From positions 16,692 through 80,691 of the forward strand of contig CAZABS010000001.1 in NCBI GenBank assembly GCA_964483635.1: a stretch of DNA of 64,000 nt. The letters run 5' to 3'. The notes under the pieces were generated by a model that saw only the letters and a program-made list of their open reading frames with translations, ran no database searches and had not been told where the DNA came from. Origin of the DNA: an uncultured Bdellovibrionales bacterium (GTDB taxonomy: Bacteria > Patescibacteriota > Minisyncoccia > Moranbacterales > UBA1568). The translations under genes and the position numbers were made by a program. Of this stretch, positions 16,171-62,369 are shown in pieces; positions within the stretch are counted from its first letter, which is position 1, and the number at the start of each line of letters is the position of its first letter.

Positions 16171-19100
16171 CTATTGAACGTACGTACGAAGGAAGTATCC
16201 GTAACCCGCGTTATGCCATGTCCCCGCAGGTGGAAGTCGTTCGAAGCGCGTAAGGTATGTGCCCCCCTGTGGTCCAACGCCACCCGCCAGCCCGGGTTGG
16301 GTGGCCACATTCGTCTCATCTGCTCGGAACCCAACGAGGAGGTGCTGACCAGCAGTTACCGCCAATCCATCACCCGGCAAGTGAATGGTCGTCCATGGAA
16401 CATTCATGAAGCCGGATGGGCTGATGTATTGCGACGTATTAGGCGGGAAACTGAGGAACGGAGTCGATGTCGTTACGAGCGACGATGTGGCTGGCACGTC
16501 GAATCCTGGGCCCGGAATGCCGTAGAAACTGACGGTCACGCTTCCAGTCGACGAGACCGTCGAACCCGTCAATATTTTCACGTCGATCTGCTTGAGCTGC
16601 CCGCTATGACCAACCTGGAACGCCTGTGCGATCTCTGTACCGTCAAACTTGTATGTCCCCGTCGTCACGTCAAAACCAACATTGAAGCCCTGCGCTATAT
16701 AGGCGGTTTCAGAGGGTGATGGTGAGTAGTTGAAATCCACCGCAAGAGGCGCAGGTGATCCACTGAGCGTCACGATCCAAGCTTCCGTCTGTCCGCTTGG
16801 ATTCAATCCCCAACCGACGATAGTCCGGCCGTCATCTGAAATACCCGTCGCCGCCGCCAGGAACCACCCCGCGAGACTGACGCCGTGATCGACTTCCAGA
16901 ACGTCTTTCAGACGACGTACGCCAATGCCCTCGATCCACATGAAGGCTTCGATACCAGCCGGCGTGCCCGGAGCACTTCCCTCTCCGACGACGACCTTGC
17001 CGTCGGCGGAAACGCCGTAGGCGATGCTTTGAGTATGTCCACTGGCGAGTCCCAATCCTTGCATCCCGCCCGCTGCAGTCCAGCGGAAGGCTTCGATCGA
17101 ACTCAGCCCGCTTCTGCTCCATCCAACGACGGTGTTGCCGTCAGCAGAGACGCCGTATGCCGTTGCATCATAGCCGCCGCCGGGGAGTTCGCCTAGAGAT
17201 TGCATACCGCCAGCCAGAGTCCAGCGAAACGCCTCGCTTCCCAGCGCAGTAAGCCCCGCGCCAACCACAATCCTCCCGTCTCTCGATACGGCACGGGCCT
17301 TACTAGAGAAACCTCCACCACTGAGATCGCCCAAGCCTTGCATGCCAGCGTCCTCAGTCCAACGGAAAGCCTCACTGATGCCCGTGTATCCCACCACGGC
17401 TTTGCCGTCGGCGGATACGCCATACGCCTCGCTATATGGATCGCCTCCGACAACGAGATAACCCAGGCCCTGCATGCCACCGCTCTCGGTCCAACGGAAA
17501 GCTTCAAGCCCTGAGCCTCTGTTTCCTCGTCCTACGACGGTCTTTCCATCCGACGATACGGCGTATGCCACTGTGTCGAAATACGCGCCACTGAGTTGCC
17601 CTAGTCCTTGCATGCCACCGCTTTTCGTCCAACGAAAGGCTTCGTTCCTTCGGCCATCGATTTCGCTTTCGCCCACGACCGTTTGACCGTCGCTTGAAAC
17701 CCCGAAAGCCCGGCTAAACACATTCCCTCCGGGCAAGTCGCCGAGTCCCGTGAATACTGCGATCTTCGGTATGCCAACTCCTGGCGGAGTCAACATAAAT
17801 CCGCGCGCCTGCCCATTGAGGCGACCGACTCCCACGATGTGGCCGACATTGTTGATCGCAGCCGCGCTATCGAGCAGCCATCCACTGCCTACGTCGATCC
17901 GCGTGTTGAGCTCGATCATCGTGCCGTCTTGCCAAACGAAGGCGCCGCCACGTACCGCATTCCCATCAACGATCCCCGTGTATCCAACTACCTGACCGAC
18001 GTTGTTGATCCCGTAGGCATAGCTTCCATAGCGAGTCGCACCAGCGAGCGAATTGATATCGCGCGTGACGCCGTTCTCCCAAAGGAAGGCGTGCTGGTAG
18101 TCGCAGCCGGTGGCCGCGTCCGTCGTCGATCGCGCATACCCCACTACTTGGCCGCGCTCGTTGATGGCGGTCGGGACGATGTCGGCACCGGCTACCAATG
18201 GGGTGAGCTTGCTTACCACTCCGTTGCGGAAGATAAAGCCGGTGATTCCGTCGAATCCATAGACACATCCGAATGGAATGAACTGCGAGCCGAATCCGAC
18301 CACGTTGCCCCCGCTGTTGACGGCGGTCGCGCTTCCAACTGGAATGAGGGGCGAGAGGTCGCTGAGGTCGGTGACGCTCCCACCATGAAAAACGAAAGCG
18401 TGGTCGCGACCCGTCGTCGTTGACGTAAGGGAGCCAGCGATATGACCAGCGTTGCTGATGCTCGCAGCTTCCGCGTGACCATCTGGATTGATGCGTAGGT
18501 CTGACATCGCACCGTTAACGTACAAGAACGGGCGCCACGCCTGATACACCGGTGTTGTTGTCATGACGTGCGATGACCCGACAACCTGACCACTGTTGTT
18601 GATGCTCGTTGCCATGGTTCCACTATTCGGGGATTCGAACCCAAGCTCTCCGAGGTCGAGGAGTATTCCTCCGCTCCAGAGAAAGGCTCTGCTTCCTCCG
18701 TTCAATATGTAACTGCCAACGACTTGCCCTCCGTCGTTGATTGAAGCCGGAGTGACGTCGCCCAAATCGGTGACGGTATAGCGCGACGGGATCACAAGAG
18801 GAGGTGGTACGACCGCATCGACCGTGACCGACCGTGTCGTCGTTCGCGCGCTGCCGCTGTTGTCGGTGACGGTGAGCGTTATGGTGTAGGTTCCAGGGCT
18901 CCCGTAGTACACGTCATGCGATGGCAGTGCGGTGTAAGTACCCTCGCCCTTTCCGGCATCCCAGACGTAGCTGACGATGGATCCATCAGGATCAGTGCTC
19001 CCGCTTGCATCGAGGTGTACTGCCTGATTTGCACTGATGGTCGACGGGATAGCCGTAAACGATGCGACAGGTGGGTGGTTGACGGTGATCGTTCGCGTGA

Positions 19101-27822: not shown

Positions 27823-27906
27823 GCTGTGGTGGCGGAATTGGTATACGCGCTAGCCTTAGGAGCTAGTACCCGCAAGGGTTTGAGAGTTCGAGTCTCTCCC
27901 ACAGCA
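27823..27906 (+). tRNA. tRNA-Leu (anticodon UAG), class II with a long variable arm
   Basis: Acceptor GCTGTGG/CCACAGC. D-arm GCGGAATTGGTATACGCGC is nearly identical to the E. coli tRNA-Leu D-arm. Anticodon stem CTAGC/GCTAG with loop CTTAGGA gives anticodon TAG. Variable arm ACCCGCAAGGGTT. T-arm GAGAGTTCGAGTCTCTC. Discriminator A; CCA is not encoded. Confidence 0.9.
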
Positions 27907-27956
27907 CACGAAAGCACCCTGATACTCCGAATAGCAAGGAGAGAGCAGGCAAGAAT

Positions 27957-53402: not shown

Positions 53403-54098
53403 TCAGACTAGCAAAAAACCAAAAAAAGGCAACAAAAAAAGGCCCTGCTCGGCCAATTCACTTCTTTTCCCGGACAATTCAACAAAAGGCTGTTGGTTGC
53501 CGGGCGCTACATCTGCGCCCAAAATATTATATAAATTTGGCTGAGTGTAGCACCCGGCGGATGGCCCAACACGTTTGTTGGAGAACTGTAGCCCGGGTGA
53601 GAGGCACGTTCGGTTCTACGCGGACAACGTGTAGTTTGTGGTCATCATGGGACGTGCTGGTGCTGTGTCCCGAATCTCCGACACCGTTCTTTGGTATTAA
53701 ACCAGATTTTTTTATGAAGGTACTGCAGCAGTTTTGCTGTTTGTTTTTGTTTTGGCTACTCTGCTTTTATTATATTTCAGAGTAATTTTTGTTTTGGTTT
53801 TGATCCGGCTCCTTTTACCAGAACGGGAGCAGTCATGCGCGTTGGCATGACAGTTGAACAGTGGGAGAGTTCCCATCACAATGAGGGGGATCATTGTGAG
53901 CGGGAGCACTCCCTCTCTTCCTCAATTAGTAAATCAACAATATTTCTTCACTCACAGATCAATTATAGCAGAAAAAAACGCTCAAGTCAATCAAAAGTTC
54001 CTTTCTCTCTCAATCAAGCCACAAAATATTTTTGATTATATTTCGCGCGCTATTCAATACATTCACTCACAAAAAAAAGTCCCCTGACTTTCTTCCAA

Positions 54099-55409: not shown

Positions 55410-57590
55410 TTAGATCTGGCTTTCGCTTTCAAGTTTCCGTTTCGCAGCTTTGAGCGAAAGATTGATTCGATTTTGTGCATCAATTTCCTTCACTAAAACA
55501 GGAACTTCGTCACCCACCTTGACAATATCTTCCACTTTTTCAACGCGATAATCAGCAAGCTCTGAAATATGAATCAGTCCTTCTTGATTGGGCAAAACCT
55601 CTGCAAAGGCTCCAAAGTTCATGAGTCTCGTAATCCGCGCTCGCGGGAAAAACTCTCCTGCCTTCACCTCTCGCGTCAAACTCTCAATCCACTCTACCGC
55701 CCGCTTGGCTCCATCCCCATCAGTTGCGGTGACAAAAACTGACCCGTCGTCCTCAATATCGATAGAGACGCCAGTTTCATCAATGATTTTATTAATCATT
55801 TTCCCACCTGGACCAATCACATCTCCGATCTTCTCGGGATTTATCTGGAGAGTAATGATGCGCGGGGCATATGGAGAGAGTTCTTTCCGAGGTTCGGATA
55901 TGGTTTCAAGCATCTTCCCCATAATAAACAACCGACTGGCTTTGGCCTGGATAACTGCGGTCGCAAGCATATCAGGCGTAAGACCGTCAATTTTAACATC
56001 CATCTGCATCGCCGTAATTCCATCCTTGGTTCCTGCTACCTTAAAATCCATGTCACCATAATGATCTTCCAATCCTTGAATATCTGAAAGAATCTTATAT
56101 TGACCATCCGTACCAGTAATCACCCCCATTGCGACACCAGCCACTGGTTTCTTGAGTGGCACTCCCGCATCCATCAGCGAGAGCGTCGAACCACACGTCG
56201 AGGCCATTGAAGATGAGCCATTGGAAGCAAGCACTTCCGAGACGAGATGAATGGTATACGGAAATTCTGCAAGGGTCGGTAAGACTGGGATCAAAGCCTT
56301 CTCTGCCAAGGCTCCATGTCCAACTTCACGCCGTCCCGGTCCTCGCATCGGCTTGATCTCACCCACGGAGTAAGCTGGAAAGTTATAGAAGTGCATATAA
56401 CGCTTCTTCTCATCGGTTTCCATCGTATCAACGATCATCTGATCACCAGGGGCACCGAGTGTCGTCACGGTGAGAACCTGTGTCTCTCCTCGAGTAAAGA
56501 GTCCCGTACCATGGGTTCGCGGCAAAACACCTACTTTACTCCAAATAGGCCGGATTTCATCAAGTTTCCGTCCATCGGGACGAGCTTCTTTGGCGAGTAT
56601 ATTGGCGTGCACCGCTGCATCCGAATATTCATCCAGAATAAGCGAGAGTATTTCGTCGCGATAATCCTCTTCGGGAAACTCAGCTGCTGCATATGCCAGG
56701 GCTTTCTCCTGAATGAGATCCACCTGGGCAGCCATCGCCTGTTTCGGACGAAGATACAGCGCTTCTTCAAGCTTTTCAACCTGAAAGAAGTCCTTCATGG
56801 CCTTTTCAAAGGCCGGCGTTCCTATCATGAGAGCAGCAGCGCGCTTGGGTTTCCCCGCTTCTTTCTGAATAGCGGCAATAAAATCCGTAATACTCGCAAT
56901 GGCTGTATGTCCAAATCGAAAGGCTTCAATCATTTTTTCTTCGGTCACTTCTTTCGCTCCAGCCTCAATCATATTGATTTTGTCGCCAGTACCCGCGAGC
57001 AAGAGATCAAGCAAACTTTCAAGGCGTTCCTCTGATTTCGGATTGAGAATCAGTTGTCCTTGAGTATTGAGTCCAATCCGCACCGCTCCAATAGGACCAC
57101 TCCATGGAATATCAGAAAGTGAGAGGGCCGCCGAAGCCGCAATCATCGCCACCAAATCTGGATCATTTTCCCCGTCATACGAGAGTACCGTCGTCACGAC
57201 CTGCACTTCATTGCGCATGCGGGAGTTAAAGAGAGGCCGAATCGTCCGATCAACCGCACGACCAGAAAGAATCGCATCATCTGATGGGCGACCTTCACGT
57301 TTTACAAATTTTGACCCTTTGATTTTCCCAGCAGCATAGTAACGCTCCTCAAAATCCACCATGAGCGGGAAATACCCGGTGATTTTTGACATTGATTGGC
57401 TCATGACCGCTGTCGCGAGGACAACCGTATCACCATATTGAACGGTCACTGCACCATTGGCTTGACCAGCCAAAAGACCGGTAGAAAACGTGAGCGCCCT
57501 TCCCCCCAGCTCCATGGACCATTTTGTGGCTTCCATATCTTTGGTATCCAGGAAGCTCATAAACACGCGGTTTGACTTGAAAAACTTCAA
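55410..57590 (-). CDS. pnp: Polyribonucleotide nucleotidyltransferase (PNPase)
   Basis: Two RNase PH domains, a KH domain (VIGPGGKMINKIIDETG) and a C-terminal S1 domain (GAFAEVLPNQEGLIHISE). The true start may be an internal Met. Confidence 0.9.
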   Translation of the reverse strand: MKFFKSNRVFMSFLDTKDMEATKWSMELGGRALTFSTGLLAGQANGAVTVQYGDTVVLATAVMSQSMSKITGYFPLMVDFEERYYAAGKIKGSKFVKREGRPSDDAILSGRAVDRTIRPLFNSRMRNEVQVVTTVLSYDGENDPDLVAMIAASAALSLSDIPWSGPIGAVRIGLNTQGQLILNPKSEERLESLLDLLLAGTGDKINMIEAGAKEVTEEKMIEAFRFGHTAIASITDFIAAIQKEAGKPKRAAALMIGTPAFEKAMKDFFQVEKLEEALYLRPKQAMAAQVDLIQEKALAYAAAEFPEEDYRDEILSLILDEYSDAAVHANILAKEARPDGRKLDEIRPIWSKVGVLPRTHGTGLFTRGETQVLTVTTLGAPGDQMIVDTMETDEKKRYMHFYNFPAYSVGEIKPMRGPGRREVGHGALAEKALIPVLPTLAEFPYTIHLVSEVLASNGSSSMASTCGSTLSLMDAGVPLKKPVAGVAMGVITGTDGQYKILSDIQGLEDHYGDMDFKVAGTKDGITAMQMDVKIDGLTPDMLATAVIQAKASRLFIMGKMLETISEPRKELSPYAPRIITLQINPEKIGDVIGPGGKMINKIIDETGVSIDIEDDGSVFVTATDGDGAKRAVEWIESLTREVKAGEFFPRARITRLMNFGAFAEVLPNQEGLIHISELADYRVEKVEDIVKVGDEVPVLVKEIDAQNRINLSLKAAKRKLESESQI

Positions 57591-57672
57591 AGAAAACCGT
57601 GTACCTATAAACTCACCCAGACAAAATAAATGTTAAGTAGCTTCAGAGTAACCTCTTTTTTGCTCTTTTGTC

Positions 57673-57775
57673 AATGAATTCTCTCCTTGCCAAGCCTTCT
57701 TACTGTGTGCTAACCTCGGAGCCAAGTGTCAAAGAAGTGCCTTACCAATCCAACAATTCAACCGCGGAGGCAATC
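57673..57775 (+). promoter_or_regulatory. Conserved ~100-nt 5' leader (copy 1): 28-nt identical core AATGAATTCTCTCCTTGCCAAGCCTTCT plus partially conserved downstream blocks, ending at an RBS GGAGG
   Basis: Direct comparison with 59193–59286. The core is identical, then gctaacctcgga vs gctagcctcgaa and ccttaccaatccaac vs ccttaccaaccaacc. Confidence 0.5.
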
Positions 57776-59146
57776 ATGAAGATCAAGCAGAATCGTCTGG
57801 TCATCATTCTTGGAACCTCAGACTTCAGCACCTCAATCGCAGGGCAACTGAACCAATCCCAGAAGGCGCGCGGGGAACCCGAAGTCATCGCCGCGCTTGT
57901 CGCACAGACGAATGGCTCCCTCAGCCAGGTAGAAAACTTCCTCGCGGCCCATCCGGAGACCAAGGTCATCGTGCTTCAAGCCCGTGTCTTCAAAGATCAC
58001 CTTCGGGATACAGCGAGGCACTTTATCAGCCGGAGGCTACAGGTTATCGTGATCATCCTCCCGACCGACGATCAACCACTGAAACATCTCGAGAAGCAAT
58101 ACCATTCACTCGGAGTGTCCGTAATTGGAGAGAATCGCGCCAACTTAATGGCACTTCTTGAGTCAACTATCCTGCGTCTCCTTAATCCATCAGCCGTAAC
58201 CCAGAGGAGGGAATTTGCCCGCCCACAGCCTGAAGATCATGACGCTGGTGCAGCGCCAAAGCGACTATACCGCAGGGCTTCTCCTCAAGATATCCCTCAG
58301 GTTCAAAGCTACGTAAACCTCCTCGGATTCGACGATGTCGACTTGGGAAATACATCCTCTCTGGATCTGGATGAGACAGCTCAAGAACCTCCCCCGCCCA
58401 CTTTGCCGTCAGGATCCCACACCGAGCGCCAAGTACACGTATCTTGGGCTCTTTCCTCTCGCGTACCGACACGCACTGCCTCTCAGCAAACGACCGCCCC
58501 GAGGAAAACTCCAACTATATCAGTGTCGAATACTTCGATCGACGCGGCCGAAGCCACAACCTCGGATCGTGAAAATACTTGTACGCGCATCGGGAGGATT
58601 GAGCATCTTGAGAGCGAACAAGATCAACTCCGGAGAAAACTAGAGGAGCTCCAGGAACAGTTCACCCAAGAACAAACCGCCATTCGCTCGGCCTTGGAAC
58701 AAGCTGGCGATGCCCTTCTTTTCGCTGTGGCGGCACTGCGGAAAATTCCCCTGACGGTTCGTCCGCTCGAAACAACGACTGCACCAACTGGGCTCTGCGC
58801 ACCCCAGTTGGAGAAGTCTACCGTAACACCGAGTGAGGGGTCTCCGGCTACCTCAGCCACCCTCCCTCTCTCCAGAGAAACTCCGGGGGAAAATCGTGCC
58901 GAAGATACTGAGGAAAAGAGTCAGTTGTCTCGTGATTCTATCTTCTCTCCTCGAGAACGAGAACTTCTCCAGATCTTGCGGAGCAACAATAGCAACATCG
59001 TCCATTACAAGGAGCTCGTGGAGCGGTTTGTGAGTCAAGGAAATATAGCCATGCTCGTAAGCAAGATCCGAGCCAGGGCCAAAAACAATTCACTCCCCGA
59101 TCCCATCAAGACATATCCTGGGATTGGATTATCGGCTCAGCGCTAG
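57776..59146 (+). CDS. Putative transcriptional regulator with a C-terminal OmpR/PhoB-type winged-helix domain
   Basis: C-terminus FSPRERELLQILRSNNSNIVHYKELVERF...MLVSKIRARAKN matches the trans_reg_C pattern (L(T/S)P+E.ELL..L......V.SR..L...VW.........V.I.RLRKKL). The N-terminus is only weakly receiver-like, followed by a long low-complexity middle. Start set at the ATG after the GGAGG RBS. Confidence 0.5.
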   Translation: MKIKQNRLVIILGTSDFSTSIAGQLNQSQKARGEPEVIAALVAQTNGSLSQVENFLAAHPETKVIVLQARVFKDHLRDTARHFISRRLQVIVIILPTDDQPLKHLEKQYHSLGVSVIGENRANLMALLESTILRLLNPSAVTQRREFARPQPEDHDAGAAPKRLYRRASPQDIPQVQSYVNLLGFDDVDLGNTSSLDLDETAQEPPPPTLPSGSHTERQVHVSWALSSRVPTRTASQQTTAPRKTPTISVSNTSIDAAEATTSDRENTCTRIGRIEHLESEQDQLRRKLEELQEQFTQEQTAIRSALEQAGDALLFAVAALRKIPLTVRPLETTTAPTGLCAPQLEKSTVTPSEGSPATSATLPLSRETPGENRAEDTEEKSQLSRDSIFSPRERELLQILRSNNSNIVHYKELVERFVSQGNIAMLVSKIRARAKNNSLPDPIKTYPGIGLSAQR

Positions 59147-59192
59147 AGCCGAAGCATTTGGGAAGACTCATCGAGTCCTCCCGTTTTTTTTA

Positions 59193-59286
59193 AATGAATT
59201 CTCTCCTTGCCAAGCCTTCTCGCGCCATGCTAGCCTCGAAACAAAGGAGATCCTTACCAACCAACCCACTACGAGAAAGGAATGGT
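59193..59286 (+). promoter_or_regulatory. Conserved 5' leader (copy 2), preceded by a T8 run
   Basis: See copy 1; the core is at 59193–59220. Confidence 0.5.
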
Positions 59287-60027
59287 ATGACTTCCATCAT
59301 CCTCTATGGAAGCAAGAGAGAGACTCAATCATTACACCTGGCACTCACGCATATCGGTGTCGGAGCTATCCTCACTGATTCAGTCTCCCCAAGCATCGCC
59401 CGCCGCTACTTTGATCGATGGCCAAAACCGGCTGGCATGGTGATATTCCCCGGGGTACTCTCCACTGACTTGCCAGACACACTCACTCCGTTGCAGGATT
59501 GTCCTGGAAACATCATCCTCCTCACCCACCTCCAAGGGCAGCGCTCGCCAGAGGGAGTCCGCAGTCTAGGCGTCGCTTATTGGTTCGTTAATCTTCGAAT
59601 TACCGAGCGAATTGCTCTTGAACCAACCCTCATCACAAGTGCTGTCGCCAAAGCAATAAGTTCGAATGATGCTGTCCAGCCGATTTTCCTGTCAGATATC
59701 CCTCCAAAGCATAAGAAGGTTTCTTTCGAGCAGCCAACTCAGCCCAGAAAAGGATTCGAAGCAATCCTCGTAGCCGGAAGAGATTGCATACCAGACTCTC
59801 CCGGTCAAGCCAAAGTGCTCCGATTCCTGCAAAACAAGAGGAATTGGAATCTTCCGTTTTCAGCGAAAACGGTGGCTATAGAGACCCGGATGGTCACCCA
59901 CCAAGCATCAACTCACCTGCATCAGCTGATGGGTACTTTGCCGCCAGGGTGGCTCGAAACTGCTACATACGGTTTCTATACCTTCAACCCAGAAGGAGCT
60001 CATGCGGTATCTTTGGCAGATTTCTAG
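59287..60027 (+). CDS. Hypothetical protein, weak N-terminal paralogue of the upstream regulator
   Basis: MTSIILYGSKRETQSLHLALTHIGVGAIL vs MKIKQNRLVIILGTSDFSTSIAGQL. No DNA-binding domain recognised. Confidence 0.4.
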   Translation: MTSIILYGSKRETQSLHLALTHIGVGAILTDSVSPSIARRYFDRWPKPAGMVIFPGVLSTDLPDTLTPLQDCPGNIILLTHLQGQRSPEGVRSLGVAYWFVNLRITERIALEPTLITSAVAKAISSNDAVQPIFLSDIPPKHKKVSFEQPTQPRKGFEAILVAGRDCIPDSPGQAKVLRFLQNKRNWNLPFSAKTVAIETRMVTHQASTHLHQLMGTLPPGWLETATYGFYTFNPEGAHAVSLADF

Positions 60028-60063
60028 TCTGTCTCAAACATATAAGGTAACCTCGCCCTATCC

Positions 60064-60102
60064 TCGCCGAGACATCTCCGTGTCCCGGTGTCTTTTTTTT
60101 AT
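60064..60102 (+). terminator. Weak hairpin followed by a T8 run, candidate terminator of the 59287–60027 gene
   Basis: cgccgagaca...tgtcccggtg is an imperfect stem, followed by tctttttttt. Confidence 0.3.
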
Positions 60103-60119
60103 ACAAAACTAAAGAAAAT

Positions 60120-60149
60120 CCCCCGCCCGGTCAGATGACCAAGCGGGGG
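60120..60149 (-). terminator. Rho-independent terminator of pyrC (minus strand)
   Basis: 7-bp GC stem CCCCCGC/GCGGGGG with a 16-nt loop. On the minus strand it is followed by GATTTTCTTTAGTTTT. Confidence 0.6.
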
Positions 60150-60169
60150 CACGCAGCGAAGTTCAGCCG

Positions 60170-61261
60170 CTACGCTTCAACTCGCCACTGGAGCGTCTTG
60201 CCAGCGCAGAGCGGGACCACCGTTCCATTGGCTCCGAGCGGATACCAGCTCGGAACTTTGAAAGGGGCTCGCTGGAGCGTGATGCTTTCCAAACCGCGTG
60301 GAACCCGGTAGAAGTCGGCCCCGTGGATAGAGGTAAACCCACCGAGCTTGTCGAGCGCCCCGGCTTCCTCGAAGACTTCCGCGTAGAGGGCGAGGGCCGT
60401 CCTGTCGGTCGTATAGCACCCCGCACAGCCACAGGCAGCTTCCTTGTCGCCACGTTCATGCGGAGCGCTATCGGTACCCATGAAGAACTTCGGGTTACCG
60501 GATGTCGCAGCCGTAACCAGCGCTTGCCGATGTGCTTCACGCTTCAGAACCGGCAGGCAGTACCAGTGCGGACGGATTCCCCCGACGAGGAGCGCGTTGC
60601 GTGAGTAGCGTGCGTGCTGAGGAGTGATGGTCGCTGCCACGTTGGGCCCGGACTCACGCACGAACGACGCCGCCTCGGACGTGGTGATGTGCTCGAGCAC
60701 GATTCGCAGCCCCGGGAAGTCACGCACGATTTGTGTCGCGTAACGTTCGACGAAGATACGTTCGCGGTCGTAAACATCAACTCCGGCATCTGTCACTTCG
60801 CCGTGCACCGAGAGCACCACGTCTTCACGCTCCATTGCAGCCAGTGCCGGGTAGGCACGCTCGAGTGCTGTCACCCCCGAGTCCGAGTTGGTTGTCGCGC
60901 CAGCCGGATAATACTTGAAGGCTAGTACGAAACCCGTGTCTTTGGCAAACCTGACGTCCTGGGGCAAAGTGTTGTCAGTGAGGTACTGCGTCATCCAGAT
61001 GGAGATGGGTTGTTCCCTTCCTTCTGGAATCGCATTCTGGATCTCCTCTCGGTACGCGAGCACCGCAGGTCCGGTTGTCAGGGCCGGCTTAGTGTTCGGC
61101 ATGACGAGGACATGCTCAAAGAGGAGCGACTCTCTCACCAAGTGCCTCAAGATATCTTGGCCTTGACGCAAATGGCGGTGCCAGTCGCCGGGCCGACTCA
61201 TCCGAATCCGATTGACCGGTGGAACAACGGTTTTTTCCAATTCACCTACTTCCATAGCCAT
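60170..61261 (-). CDS. pyrC: Dihydroorotase, class II (E. coli PyrC type)
   Basis: DWHRHLRQGQ (HxH), VLEHITTSEAASFVRESGPNVAATITPQHARYSRNALLVGGIRPHWYCLPVLKR and FFMGTDSAPHERGDKEAACGCAGCYT are nearly collinear with E. coli PyrC (VFEHITTKDAADYV...ATITPQH...LGTDSAPH...SCGCAGCF). Start set at MAMEV. Confidence 0.85.
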   Translation of the reverse strand: MAMEVGELEKTVVPPVNRIRMSRPGDWHRHLRQGQDILRHLVRESLLFEHVLVMPNTKPALTTGPAVLAYREEIQNAIPEGREQPISIWMTQYLTDNTLPQDVRFAKDTGFVLAFKYYPAGATTNSDSGVTALERAYPALAAMEREDVVLSVHGEVTDAGVDVYDRERIFVERYATQIVRDFPGLRIVLEHITTSEAASFVRESGPNVAATITPQHARYSRNALLVGGIRPHWYCLPVLKREAHRQALVTAATSGNPKFFMGTDSAPHERGDKEAACGCAGCYTTDRTALALYAEVFEEAGALDKLGGFTSIHGADFYRVPRGLESITLQRAPFKVPSWYPLGANGTVVPLCAGKTLQWRVEA

Positions 61262-61355
61262 TGCTTTTCCTTTCCCGTTTAGATTCGATTTTCCCTTCGA
61301 TTCATGAAGGGTTGTTGAGTACTTCTCCTTTTCTTTTCCTTTCTTTCGGTTCAGG

Positions 61356-62369
61356 TTAACGGAAATCGTCGGCGAACCAGTCCACGAAGCGTGAGCTTGC
61401 AAGGAAGTCGGCAAAGAAACGAGCCGCCTGGGGATGCCACACTGGACCAGAGGTGCACTGCACTGCCGAGGCACCCGCCTGAAGTGTGTCTACGACATCA
61501 TCGCCTGTGAGATTTCCACCACTTGCGACAAGGTCAACATGTTCCCACGGCGCGAGCCAAGAAACAATCTGACGGATCAGCTCATGCGAGATCTCCTTCA
61601 CGATGGGGCCAGAGAGTCCGGCTCGTCCTTCATAGGGGCTTGTCACCGGTCGGCCATCTTCGCCGAAAGCCCGGCAGCCAGGAAGTGTGTTGCAAGCGAC
61701 AAATGCCTTGATGAAGGGGTACTGAAGGAGCAGCCGTACATATTGCTTGGCGTATCCCTCAGGCACCGTGAGCGTCTCGTCAAAGTTGAAACGTGGATAC
61801 GCCAGAGCCAGCTGGTCACGCCGCTTTTCCGTAATGAGTGGGGCGAGTTTCCACCAGATCGGCTTCGTCAGATGGCCTCTCGCCACCTCGGCATGAATCG
61901 CTCTCAGCGTGTCGGCTGTCGCGTCCAGTTGGTAGCACATCGGCGGTTTGCCGGTGTTGCCACAGCTCGCGTTGGCCTCGTGACCAGCAACGCTCACTGA
62001 CTCGTCCGCCATGCACATGGACTCGGCATATTGGTTCGGACTGAAGCCAGCGTGACTCACCAAAGTTGGACGATCAAGTGGCACAGTCTCCAGGGTTTCT
62101 ATTCCCTCTTTTTCCCCAATGTTCGGCATACCCCTCGAGTTGAGCCCGCCGCCAACGTCGAGAAATTCCCTCCAGCTCAGTGGCCACTGGAGCACCGCTC
62201 CCTCGTTTTGATGTCGTGGTTCGGGAGTGAGAGAGCCAACCACATAGGCTCCCAGGGGGACATCTTGACCAATCAAAGACAGAAGATCCCGTGGGTACTT
62301 GGCAAAGCCGGCTCCAATCATGATGGGCCAGCGCATGGCAATACCACCGACAATATACGACTTTTCCAT
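61356..62369 (-). CDS. Dihydroorotate dehydrogenase family protein (class 1-like)
   Basis: GGGLNSRGMPNIGEKEG (GlN..G..N.G), NASCGNTGKP (like the N.SCPN catalytic-Cys block) and GLSGPIV...LVASGGNLTGDDVVDTLQAGASAVQCTSG (C-terminal FMN-binding block). Confidence 0.55.
   Translation of the reverse strand: MEKSYIVGGIAMRWPIMIGAGFAKYPRDLLSLIGQDVPLGAYVVGSLTPEPRHQNEGAVLQWPLSWREFLDVGGGLNSRGMPNIGEKEGIETLETVPLDRPTLVSHAGFSPNQYAESMCMADESVSVAGHEANASCGNTGKPPMCYQLDATADTLRAIHAEVARGHLTKPIWWKLAPLITEKRRDQLALAYPRFNFDETLTVPEGYAKQYVRLLLQYPFIKAFVACNTLPGCRAFGEDGRPVTSPYEGRAGLSGPIVKEISHELIRQIVSWLAPWEHVDLVASGGNLTGDDVVDTLQAGASAVQCTSGPVWHPQAARFFADFLASSRFVDWFADDFR

What the first reader, a model, noticed from the sequence alone, without database searches (positions are those of the whole stretch)
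57591..59290. Two paralogous genes share a ~100-nt upstream leader that begins with the same ATG-MNSLLAKPS segment
An identical 28-nt core (AATGAATTCTCTCCTTGCCAAGCCTTCT) with further conserved blocks precedes both 57776–59146 (OmpR-type winged-helix regulator) and 59287–60027. Each copy follows a T-rich tract and contains an in-frame ATG encoding MNSLLAKPS. Thereafter the peptides diverge while the nucleotides stay partly conserved. This points to a cis-regulatory RNA or leader-peptide attenuator and a duplicated regulatory module, rather than a conserved N-terminal extension.
Basis: seen in the sequence. Interest (0 to 1): 0.55.

Follow-up and report, generated by a model that had tools for sequence, protein, structure and literature searches.

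The report
Duplicated promoter before two regulator genes
The sequence shared upstream of two neighbouring regulator-like genes in this uncultured Moranbacteria (CPR) genome is most likely an ordinary sigma-70-type promoter plus a short 5' untranslated region present in two copies, and the "ATG-MNSLLAKPS" reading frame inside it is incidental.

Summary
The repeat is real. An exact 28-mer lies at 57673-57700 and 59193-59220 (none expected by chance), inside about 100 nt of patchy similarity upstream of gene 1 (57776-59146) and gene 2 (59287-60027).

Seven distinct upstream regions from five genomes (nine rows, two pairs identical) point to a promoter. The columns invariant in all of them include TTG of a -35 box (TTGCCA), the TG and TA of an extended -10 (TGCTAACCT or TGCTAGCCT), and the last T of that hexamer. 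The spacer varies in sequence but stays 17-18 nt long. Copy 2 starts right after gene 1's hairpin-plus-T8 terminator. The same composite pattern marks other intergenic regions of this genome.

The upstream ATG is out of frame with the gene in 3 of 6 close copies and absent from the two distant ones. It shows no codon-position bias and encodes a different peptide in L002 (MNSFPLPSRLSPC*).

I found no RNA structure: fold z-scores run from -0.85 to +1.56, and Rfam gives nothing even at E<=10. So this is not an N-terminal extension, and I found no support for a leader peptide or a structured RNA.

Paralogy of the two genes is not detectable (hhalign probability 0.3-0.6%).

The finding is ordinary.

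The parts
57673..57700 (+). Copy 1 of the exact 28-mer. It covers about -50 to -23 of the predicted gene 1 promoter and contains the incidental ATG at 57674.
57687..57692 (+). -35 hexamer TTGCCA of the gene 1 promoter
   Evidence: TTG is invariant in all 9 aligned leaders. Pattern hits.
57708..57716 (+). Extended -10 TGCTAACCT (TG, one base, TAACCT), 18 nt after the -35. The start site is predicted at about 57722-57725 (inferred).
   Evidence: TGCTA and the final T are invariant in 9 leaders. Spacer length is constant while its sequence varies.
57740..57748 (+). Conserved block CCTTACCAA in the predicted 5' UTR, 26-27 nt before the start codon in the six close copies. It is a near-repeat of the -35 region CCTTGCCAA. 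Its role is unknown (operator or linear RNA motif).
57766..57770 (+). Shine-Dalgarno GGAGG of gene 1
57776..59146 (+). Gene 1 (456 aa). It has an N-terminal (beta-alpha)5 flavodoxin/receiver-like domain, a disordered and coiled-coil middle, and a weak OmpR-type winged-helix match at the C-terminus. It evolves fast.
59159..59191 (+). Intrinsic terminator of gene 1: hairpin (-13 kcal/mol) followed by T8
   Evidence: L003 has a cleaner stem at the same place.
59193..59220 (+). Copy 2 of the exact 28-mer, containing the incidental ATG at 59194
59207..59212 (+). -35 hexamer TTGCCA of the gene 2 promoter
59228..59236 (+). Extended -10 TGCTAGCCT, 18 nt after the -35. The start site is predicted at about 59242-59245 (inferred).
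59252..59260 (+). Conserved block CCTTACCAA in the predicted 5' UTR of gene 2
59277..59281 (+). Shine-Dalgarno AAGGA of gene 2
59287..60027 (+). Gene 2 (246 aa). It has no Pfam match. The model shows a (beta-alpha)5 N-terminal domain and three helices plus a beta-hairpin at the C-terminus, at low confidence. The family has only four members among 1.84 billion representatives.
57645..57674 (-). Divergent pnp promoter: TTGACA (57674-57669), 18-nt spacer, TACTCT (57650-57645). Its A-rich spacer is the 'T-rich tract' seen before copy 1.
   Evidence: Three-genome footprint. L164 has TTGACA-N18-TACAGT at the same place.
57545..57623 (-). Long hairpin in the pnp 5' leader. It lies inside the finding's coordinates but belongs to pnp.

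Best explanation
Each copy is a sigma-70-type promoter followed by a 45-55 nt 5' UTR. The parts are a T-rich upstream tract, a -35 box TTGCCA, an 18-nt spacer, an extended -10 TG-C-TA(A/G)CCT, a predicted start site about 7 nt later, an unstructured A/C-rich leader containing the block CYTTACCAA, a Shine-Dalgarno sequence, and the true ATG (57776 or 59287).

Gene 1 is transcribed from copy 1, back to back with the pnp promoter. Its transcript stops at the hairpin-plus-T8 terminator at 59159-59191. Gene 2 is then transcribed from its own promoter, copy 2.

The two copies share sequence because the promoter region has been inherited or copied together with this small family of regulator-like genes. 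The 28-mer part appears to have been kept identical within genomes, possibly by gene conversion. The ATG-MNSLLAKPS frame lies upstream of the predicted start site and is not a functional coding element.

Shown here: the motif, its conservation pattern, the frame breaks, the absence of RNA structure, and the terminator. Inferred: the start-site positions, any UP-element role of the T tract, gene conversion, and any binding of the gene products to the extra conserved blocks.
For: (1) In the alignment of nine leader rows (seven distinct) from five genomes, the invariant columns include TTG of the -35, TGCTA, and the last T of the -10 hexamer. These are the positions sigma-70 contacts (established knowledge). 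A few other columns, including the base after the -35 hexamer, are also invariant.
(2) In the six close copies 9 of the 11 non-conserved spacer positions vary, yet the spacer is always 18 nt (17 in the two distant copies). Indels do occur just upstream of the -35 (2 nt), downstream of the -10 (8 nt) and near the SD (1 nt).
(3) Fourfold-degenerate sites between the window and L002 are only 50-53% identical, while these blocks are 100% identical. They persist in L164, whose PNPase is 80% identical to the window's.
(4) The composite pattern TTGNNN-N17-19-TGNTANNNT has 7 hits in the window, and 5 of them lie in the roughly 12% of DNA that is non-coding. Other conserved intergenic regions carry TGATACAAT, TGGTATACT, TGCTAAACT and TTGACA-N18-TACAGT.
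(5) Copy 2 begins 2 nt after a terminator hairpin plus T8 (-13 to -15.7 kcal/mol, z -2.5 to -4.2), so gene 2 needs its own promoter.
(6) The motif CTTGCCAAG-N10-14-TGCTA occurs only upstream of members of this gene family in 1.39 Mb of Moranbacteria loci, and only at the two leaders in the window.
(7) Against coding: the upstream ATG is out of frame in 3 of 6 copies, is absent in 2 more leaders, and shows no third-position excess.
Against: No transcription start site has been mapped. The -10 hexamers (TAACCT, TAGCCT) match TATAAT at only 3 of 6 positions, so the generic scan missed them. Promoter rules for CPR bacteria are barely studied.

Conservation extends beyond core promoter positions: the ATGAATTCT box, the flanks of the -35, CCTCG after the -10, and the CYTTACCAA block. 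A bare promoter does not explain these. Most genes here lack an SD, so the missing SD before the upstream ATG is weak evidence against its translation. Read-through past gene 1's terminator could still place copy 2's ATG in an mRNA. The sample is small: seven distinct leaders, several of them closely related.
Confidence: 0.8

Rival explanations
1. Promoter plus operator. The extra conserved blocks (the ATGAATTCT box at about -49 to -41, and the 9-mer CCTT[G/A]CCAA present once over the -35 and once at about +10 to +25) are binding sites for a specific regulator, plausibly the winged-helix products of gene 1 and/or gene 2. The pair would then be auto- and co-regulated. This extends the best explanation rather than replacing it.
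For: CYTTRCCAA occurs 7 times in the window against 1.6 expected, and 4 of these lie in the two leaders. The second block is kept in all six close copies and recognisably in P0007 and P0008. The promoter is more conserved than the fast-evolving proteins it drives. Gene 1 gives a weak Trans_reg_C match in all three orthologues.
Against: Spacing between the two 9-mers is 47 or 55 bp, so it is neither 10-11 bp periodic nor in conserved phase. The ATGAATTCT box is absent from the P0007 and P0008 leaders, and in copy 2 it is no better conserved between orthologues than neutral sites. DNA binding by either protein is unproven. The structure models are low confidence.
Confidence: 0.3
2. Leader peptide or regulatory upstream ORF. 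The ATG at 57674 or 59194 is translated, and translation of the short ORF controls the downstream gene by attenuation or translational coupling.
For: An ATG is kept at this place in the six close copies. In L001 gene 1 the ORF ends in TGA overlapping the main ATG. The organism often initiates without an SD.
Against: The peptide is not conserved: L002 reads MNSFPLPSRLSPC*, and lengths are 13, 34, 39 codons or fused to the gene. Substitutions by codon position are 7, 7, 5. The ATG is absent from the P0007 and P0008 leaders. No alternative hairpins or terminator lie downstream. The predicted promoter lies inside the ORF.
Confidence: 0.05
3. Structured cis-regulatory RNA (riboswitch-like leader, protein-binding RNA, or a hairpin that sequesters the SD).
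For: Nucleotide blocks are conserved across frames. In gene 1 of the window and L001 the CCUU of the block can pair with the SD, with probability 0.64-0.69.
Against: MFE z-scores are -0.85 to +1.56 for the whole leaders and +1.14 to -0.64 for the predicted UTRs. The consensus fold is -4.7 kcal/mol. Rfam has no match at E<=10. SD pairing is no greater than in shuffled controls and is absent in the other four leaders. The two UTRs otherwise differ at 17-23 of 41 positions.
Confidence: 0.05
4. True N-terminal extension: both proteins start at MNSLLAKPS.
For: It is in frame and open in both window copies and in L001 gene 2. One gene caller chose the long form (P0005, 283 aa).
Against: It is out of frame in L001 gene 1 (101 nt), L002 gene 1 (95 nt) and L003 gene 2 (94 nt). 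The conserved block CCTTACCAA is read in different frames in the two copies. SD sequences sit 5 nt before the downstream ATGs.
Confidence: 0.02

Closest known systems
Sigma-70 (RpoD) promoters with an extended -10 (TGn) element, as defined in E. coli and B. subtilis
   Same: It has a -35 TTGCCA (5 of 6 matches to TTGACA), a 17-18 nt spacer, TG one base before a TAnnnT hexamer, a T-rich tract at about -52 to -70, an intergenic position, and a gene start 45-55 nt downstream. The conserved positions are the ones sigma contacts.
   Different: The start site is not mapped. The -10 hexamer is weak in its middle (TAACCT, TAGCCT). The host is a CPR/Patescibacteria lineage with few mapped promoters. 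Conservation extends beyond the core elements.
Leader-peptide attenuators (trpL, hisL, pheL; ermCL-type)
   Same: A short ATG-initiated frame lies about 100 nt upstream of a regulated gene and follows a T-rich tract.
   Different: There is no conserved peptide, no run of regulatory codons, no alternative terminator and antiterminator hairpins, and the frame and length vary between close relatives.
Autoregulated promoters of OmpR/PhoB-family regulators (for example pho boxes overlapping the -35)
   Same: Regulator-like genes with a possible winged-helix domain are preceded by a repeated short motif, one copy of which overlaps the -35.
   Different: The repeats are 47 or 55 bp apart rather than 11 bp. 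The -35 is already near consensus. The N-terminal domains give no Pfam receiver match, and by my reading of the sequence they have no acidic residue at the end of the third strand. No kinase gene is nearby. Binding is untested.
Intergenic repeat families (REP, MITE-like elements)
   Same: A short exact repeat occurs in two intergenic regions.
   Different: It is found only upstream of this gene family, always in the same orientation and at the same distance from the start codon. It has no terminal inverted repeats and is not scattered: no further copy in the window, and no hits in the genome or metagenome collections.

Membership tests
Sigma-70-type promoter | -35 hexamer resembling TTGACA | tested here: met
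   TTGCCA (5 of 6) at 57687-57692 and 59207-59212. TTG is invariant in 9 leaders.
Sigma-70-type promoter | -10 hexamer TAnnnT at 16-19 nt, optionally preceded by TGn | tested here: met
   TGCTAACCT and TGCTAGCCT with an 18-nt spacer (17 in P0007 and P0008). TG, TA and the final T are invariant. The strict generic scan missed it because only 3 of 6 bases match TATAAT.
Sigma-70-type promoter | Conservation footprint: hexamers conserved, spacer free in sequence but fixed in length | tested here: met
Sigma-70-type promoter | Same motif class used at other genes of the organism | tested here: met
   5 of 7 composite-pattern hits lie in the ~12% non-coding DNA. Conserved examples appear upstream of other genes.
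Sigma-70-type promoter | Transcription starts 6-9 nt downstream of the -10 | not testable with these tools
   No transcript data are available.
Leader-peptide attenuator | Conserved, translatable short ORF | tested here: not met
   Frameshift after codon 3 in L002. Lengths are 13, 34, 39 codons or fused to the gene. The ATG is absent in two leaders. There is no codon-position bias.
Leader-peptide attenuator | Mutually exclusive terminator and antiterminator hairpins after the ORF | tested here: not met
   No stable structure, and no hairpin plus T-run between the ATG and the gene.
Structured cis-regulatory RNA (Rfam families or a new one) | Match to a known covariance model | tested here: not met
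   Nothing at the gathering score or at E<=10.
Structured cis-regulatory RNA (Rfam families or a new one) | Fold more stable than shuffles, and/or covarying pairs | tested here: not met
   z-scores -0.85 to +1.56. The consensus fold is -4.7 kcal/mol, and its 'compensatory' pairs join non-homologous flanks. The small sample limits the power of the covariation test.
N-terminal protein extension | Reading frame kept between the upstream ATG and the gene in homologues | tested here: not met
   Distances are 101, 95 and 94 nt in three homologues.
OmpR/PhoB-type response regulator (gene 1) | Trans_reg_C winged-helix domain above Pfam's gathering score | tested here: inconclusive
   20.1 bits against a cut-off of 26.2 (E 6.6e-4), but present in all three orthologues at residues 390-451.
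OmpR/PhoB-type response regulator (gene 1 and gene 2) | Receiver domain with a phospho-acceptor aspartate | tested here: not met
   There is no Response_reg match in Pfam. The models show a generic (beta-alpha)5 flavodoxin-like fold at pLDDT 46-84, matching receivers, PurE and DHQase about equally. Read against the predicted strand positions, the sequence has no acidic residue at the end of strand 3 (my reading of the sequence, not a tool result).
Paralogy of gene 1 and gene 2 | Detectable sequence or profile similarity | tested here: not met
   BLASTP finds nothing. hhalign gives probability 0.6% and 0.3%. The only similarity is in predicted secondary-structure order.

The most novel reading that the evidence does not exclude
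The two promoters are the operators of a lineage-specific circuit. Two orphan, fast-evolving pseudo-receiver/winged-helix proteins of a Moranbacteria clade bind the repeated CCTT[G/A]CCAA 9-mers (over the -35 and at about +15), and perhaps the ATGAATTCT box, to auto- and cross-regulate themselves. The operator-bearing 28-mer is kept identical between the two copies by gene conversion. Because copy 1 lies back to back with the pnp promoter, the same sites might also affect pnp.
Probability: 0.2. Interest if true: 0.35.

Novelty: new member of a known kind. Interest (0 to 1): 0.15.

Why it matters
It matters little beyond annotation. It fixes the true start codons of two orphan genes (57776 and 59287, not 57674 and 59194). 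It warns that gene callers extend such genes into their promoters: P0005 and P0003 were called long. It gives a phylogenetically footprinted example of promoter architecture in a CPR/Moranbacteria lineage (TTGnnn, N17-18, TGcTAnnnT), where few promoters are defined. If the extra conserved blocks prove to be operators, the locus would be a compact model of autoregulation in an organism with very few regulators.

Tried and rejected
- Collection scans for TTGCCAAGCC-N11-TGCTARCCTCG found nothing in genome contigs or metagenome contigs. So I could not tell whether the motif recurs elsewhere in the source genome.
- Searching 160 Moranbacteria pnp loci (1.39 Mb) for gene 1, gene 2 or the leader found only the four close relatives and L164/L165.
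- Rfam searches at the gathering score and at E<=10 found nothing.
- RNAalifold and single-sequence folds of the whole leaders and the predicted UTRs showed no signal.
- Anti-SD idea: pairing of the CCUU block with the SD was predicted only for gene 1 of the window and L001, and was not above shuffled controls. Rejected as a general mechanism.
- Profile-profile and structure-based attempts to link gene 1 to gene 2 showed no significant homology. The AlphaFold models had low confidence (pLDDT 52 and 46), and Foldseek returned only generic flavodoxin-like matches.
- PDB profile searches were uninformative.
- The generic promoter scan did not flag the sites, because it requires 4 of 6 matches in each hexamer.
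- Literature searches on CPR promoters and leaderless translation gave no directly relevant data.
- A mobile or REP-like repeat was rejected: the copies have fixed orientation and distance to the gene start and are not scattered.
Full report
**Observation.**
The exact 28-mer AATGAATTCTCTCCTTGCCAAGCCTTCT occurs at 57673-57700 and 59193-59220 and nowhere else in the window, even with 3 mismatches. None of 100 shuffles gave a match. The repeat finder extends it to 61 nt at 80% identity. A pairwise alignment shows further shared blocks up to the two start codons. Each copy holds an ATG (57674, 59194) that in this window runs in frame, without a stop, into the downstream ORF.

**Setting.**
The window comes from an uncultured Candidatus Moraniibacteriota (Patescibacteria/CPR) bacterium. 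Its PNPase is at most 78% identical to that of any GTDB species representative, and all the best hits are Moranbacteria MAGs.

Gene 1 (57776-59146, 456 aa) lies divergent from pnp (55410-57536, minus strand). Gene 2 (59287-60027, 246 aa) follows gene 1. Both proteins are very rare: three homologues each among 5.8 billion clusters, all from Logan assemblies. A full HMMER search of 1.84 billion representatives with the gene 2 profile found four proteins in all, only two of them new.

The related loci are:
- L001, with both genes.
- L002, with gene 1 only, plus a distant gene 2 paralogue, P0007, 2.4 kb away.
- L003, with the 3' end of gene 1 and all of gene 2.
- L164/L165, an NCBI MAG and a Logan contig whose PNPase is 80% identical to the window's. 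Here a single gene 2-like gene, P0008, sits divergent from pnp.

**Is it coding?**
The distance from the upstream ATG to the true start is 102 nt (window gene 1) and 93 nt (window gene 2 and L001 gene 2), which are in frame. It is 101 nt in L001 gene 1, 95 nt in L002 gene 1 and 94 nt in L003 gene 2, which are out of frame.

In L002 a 2-nt insertion changes the peptide after codon 3, giving MNSFPLPSRLSPC*. Substitutions between orthologous leaders fall evenly on the three codon positions (7, 7, 5 for the window against L003). In the real genes the third position is far more variable. The block CCTTACCAA is read in different frames in the two window copies. The leaders of P0007 and P0008 have no ATG at this place.

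So the segment is neither an N-terminal extension nor a conserved leader peptide. Most genes here lack a Shine-Dalgarno sequence (5-7 of 20). I therefore give no weight to the missing SD before the upstream ATG.

**Is it a structured RNA?**
Rfam gives nothing at the gathering score or at E<=10 for 57400-59400. Whole leaders and predicted UTRs fold no better than shuffles, with z from -0.85 to +1.56. The consensus fold of six leaders is -4.7 kcal/mol, and its "compensatory" pairs join the non-homologous T tracts to the SD regions.

I also tested pairing of the CCUU in the conserved block with the SD. It is predicted only in gene 1 of the window and L001, and it never exceeds shuffled controls. 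Nothing supports a structured element.

**What the conservation pattern shows.**
In the six close leaders the invariant blocks are ATGrATTCT, CTTGCCAAGCC, TGCTArCCTCG, CAAG, CyTTACCAA, and the SD with its ATG.

Between CTTGCCAAGCC and TGCTA lie 11 nt, of which 9 vary. Their number never changes, although indels occur just upstream (2 nt), downstream (8 nt) and near the SD (1 nt). Read as a promoter, this is TTGCCA, 18 nt, TA(A/G)CCT, with TG one base before the hexamer (an extended -10).

Adding the two distant leaders gives nine rows, seven of them distinct. The columns that stay invariant include TTG of the -35, TGCTA, and the last T of the hexamer. These are the positions that sigma-70 region 4, region 3.0 and region 2.4 contact (established knowledge). 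The other invariant columns are a few isolated bases, including the A that follows the -35 hexamer, and the main ATG. The spacer is 17 nt in the two distant leaders.

Fourfold-degenerate sites between the window and L002 are 50-53% identical, so these blocks are under selection.

The pattern also fits the organism. The composite pattern TTGNNN-N17-19-TGNTANNNT has seven hits in the window, five of them in the roughly 12% of DNA that is non-coding. Other three-genome-conserved upstream regions carry TGATACAAT, TGGTATACT, TGCTAAACT and TTGACA-N18-TACAGT, often so close to the ATG that the mRNAs must be leaderless or nearly so.

**Anatomy of the two regions.**
Copy 2 begins 2 nt after a hairpin plus T8 that closes gene 1 (59159-59191). 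The hairpin is -13 kcal/mol with z -2.5, and L003 has a cleaner stem at -15.7 kcal/mol with z -4.2. Gene 2 therefore needs its own promoter, and the "T-rich tract" there is the terminator tail.

Before copy 1, the T-rich tract is the spacer of the divergent pnp promoter on the minus strand: TTGACA at 57674-57669, 18 nt, TACTCT at 57650-57645. This promoter is conserved in three genomes, and L164 has TTGACA-N18-TACAGT at the same place. The two T tracts are thus not homologous.

Further left, 57545-57623 on the minus strand forms a long hairpin in the pnp leader (-32.9 kcal/mol, z -4.7). So the first 60 nt or so of the finding's interval belong to pnp.

**Why the copies are alike.**
The promoter accompanies every member of this small gene family, including P0007 and P0008, and is found nowhere else in 1.39 Mb of Moranbacteria loci. 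That fits inheritance or duplication of gene and promoter together.

The similarity is mosaic:
- The 28-mer is identical between the two window copies, but orthologues differ from them at 3-5 positions plus an indel.
- The spacer and -10 part of L002's gene 1 leader is closer to the gene 2 leaders than to its own orthologue.
- The 5' UTRs are gene-specific (17-23 differences in 41 nt), apart from the CyTTACCAA block.

Paralogues being more alike than orthologues suggests gene conversion between the copies, which lie 1.5 kb apart. This is an inference. It needs the gene 1 leader of the L003 genome to test.

**The genes.**
Gene 1 has a sub-threshold Trans_reg_C match at residues 390-451 in all three orthologues. 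Its model shows a (beta-alpha)5 N-terminal domain at pLDDT 65-84 and a long coiled coil. Gene 2 has no Pfam match. Its low-confidence model shows the same (beta-alpha)5 order followed by three helices and a beta-hairpin.

Foldseek returns generic flavodoxin-like folds, with receiver domains among them. BLASTP and hhalign find no relationship between the two genes. "Paralogous" is therefore unproven, and "OmpR-type" is only a plausible label for gene 1. Gene 1 evolves fast: 59-67% identity between genomes whose PNPase is 95-98% identical.

**Unexplained remainder.**
Conservation beyond the core promoter is not accounted for by RNA polymerase alone. This covers the ATGAATTCT box, the flanks of the -35, CCTCG after the -10, and the 9-mer CCTT[G/A]CCAA, which is present both over the -35 and at about +10 to +25. 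That 9-mer has 7 matches in the window against 1.6 expected, and four of them lie in the two leaders.

The likeliest addition is an operator for a specific regulator, possibly the gene products themselves. However, the spacing (47 or 55 bp) is unlike the tandem sites of OmpR/PhoB proteins, and nothing here tests binding.

**Verdict.**
This is an ordinary sigma-70-type promoter with its 5' UTR, present before each of two adjacent regulator-like genes of a CPR bacterium. The ATG-MNSLLAKPS frame is incidental. The RNA and leader-peptide mechanisms find no support. Interest is low.

Noticed in passing
window 57545-57623 (minus strand), between the pnp promoter and the pnp start at 57536: There is a long, very stable hairpin in the pnp 5' leader (-32.9 kcal/mol, z -4.7; -41 kcal/mol, z -6.2 in L002, with a different apical stem). 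Its arms (GGTTTATAGGTACACGG ... CCGCGTGTTTATGAGCC) recur in the closest Moranbacteria, with variable tips. Across 150 Moranbacteria pnp upstream regions the median fold z-score is -3.8. In principle it resembles the RNase III-cleaved hairpin of the E. coli pnp leader (own knowledge). Rfam has no match.
   Followed up: partly
window 53403-54098 (minus strand): This 700-nt gap has no gene, yet it has a near-perfect promoter (TTGACT-N17-TGCTATAAT at 53990-53962), a 3' part conserved in L001 and L002, and a terminator-like GGCC...GGCC plus T-run near 53450. Rfam (gathering score and E<=1) and ARAGORN find nothing. It may be an unannotated non-coding RNA of about 500 nt.
   Followed up: partly
window 27823-27907 and its flanks: G+C drops from 0.54-0.59 (1-28000) to 0.44-0.48 (28000-56000) right at a tRNA-Leu gene. 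This could be an integrated element, a mosaic genome or an assembly join.
   Followed up: no
window 57776-62369; L001 10001-14599: The few genes with a clear Shine-Dalgarno sequence (gene 1, gene 2, dihydroorotase, dihydroorotate dehydrogenase) sit together in a block of higher G+C (0.52-0.58) than its neighbours (0.46-0.49). L164 lacks the pyrC/pyrD genes at this place. This hints that the block was acquired.
   Followed up: no
L001 and L002 gene starts (e.g. L001 1047/1070, 7564, 5171): Only 5-7 of 20 genes have an SD-like sequence. Many have an extended -10 box about 7-12 nt before the ATG, for example TGATACAAT and TGGTATTGT back to back in a 22-nt intergenic region. This suggests widespread leaderless or near-leaderless mRNAs in this lineage.
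   Followed up: partly
L002 11432-11587 and 13862-14662: L002 lacks gene 2 after gene 1. The terminator hairpin is still recognisable there and is followed by ATGAGTAAC. L002 does carry a distant gene 2 paralogue (P0007, 34% identity over the N-terminal domain) between pyrD and the NYN gene, with its own diverged copy of the promoter.
   Followed up: partly
window 16984-17709: Two interleaved direct-repeat families occur here, five copies each, with a period of about 138-141 nt at 62-82% identity. This is probably a protein with tandem repeat domains.
   Followed up: no
P0003 (L002 10001-11431) and P0005 (L001 11425-12276): Public gene calls for these homologues start inside the promoter or leader, at an ATG in the -10 region and at the MNSLLAKPS ATG respectively. 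These are over-extended N-termini.
   Followed up: yes
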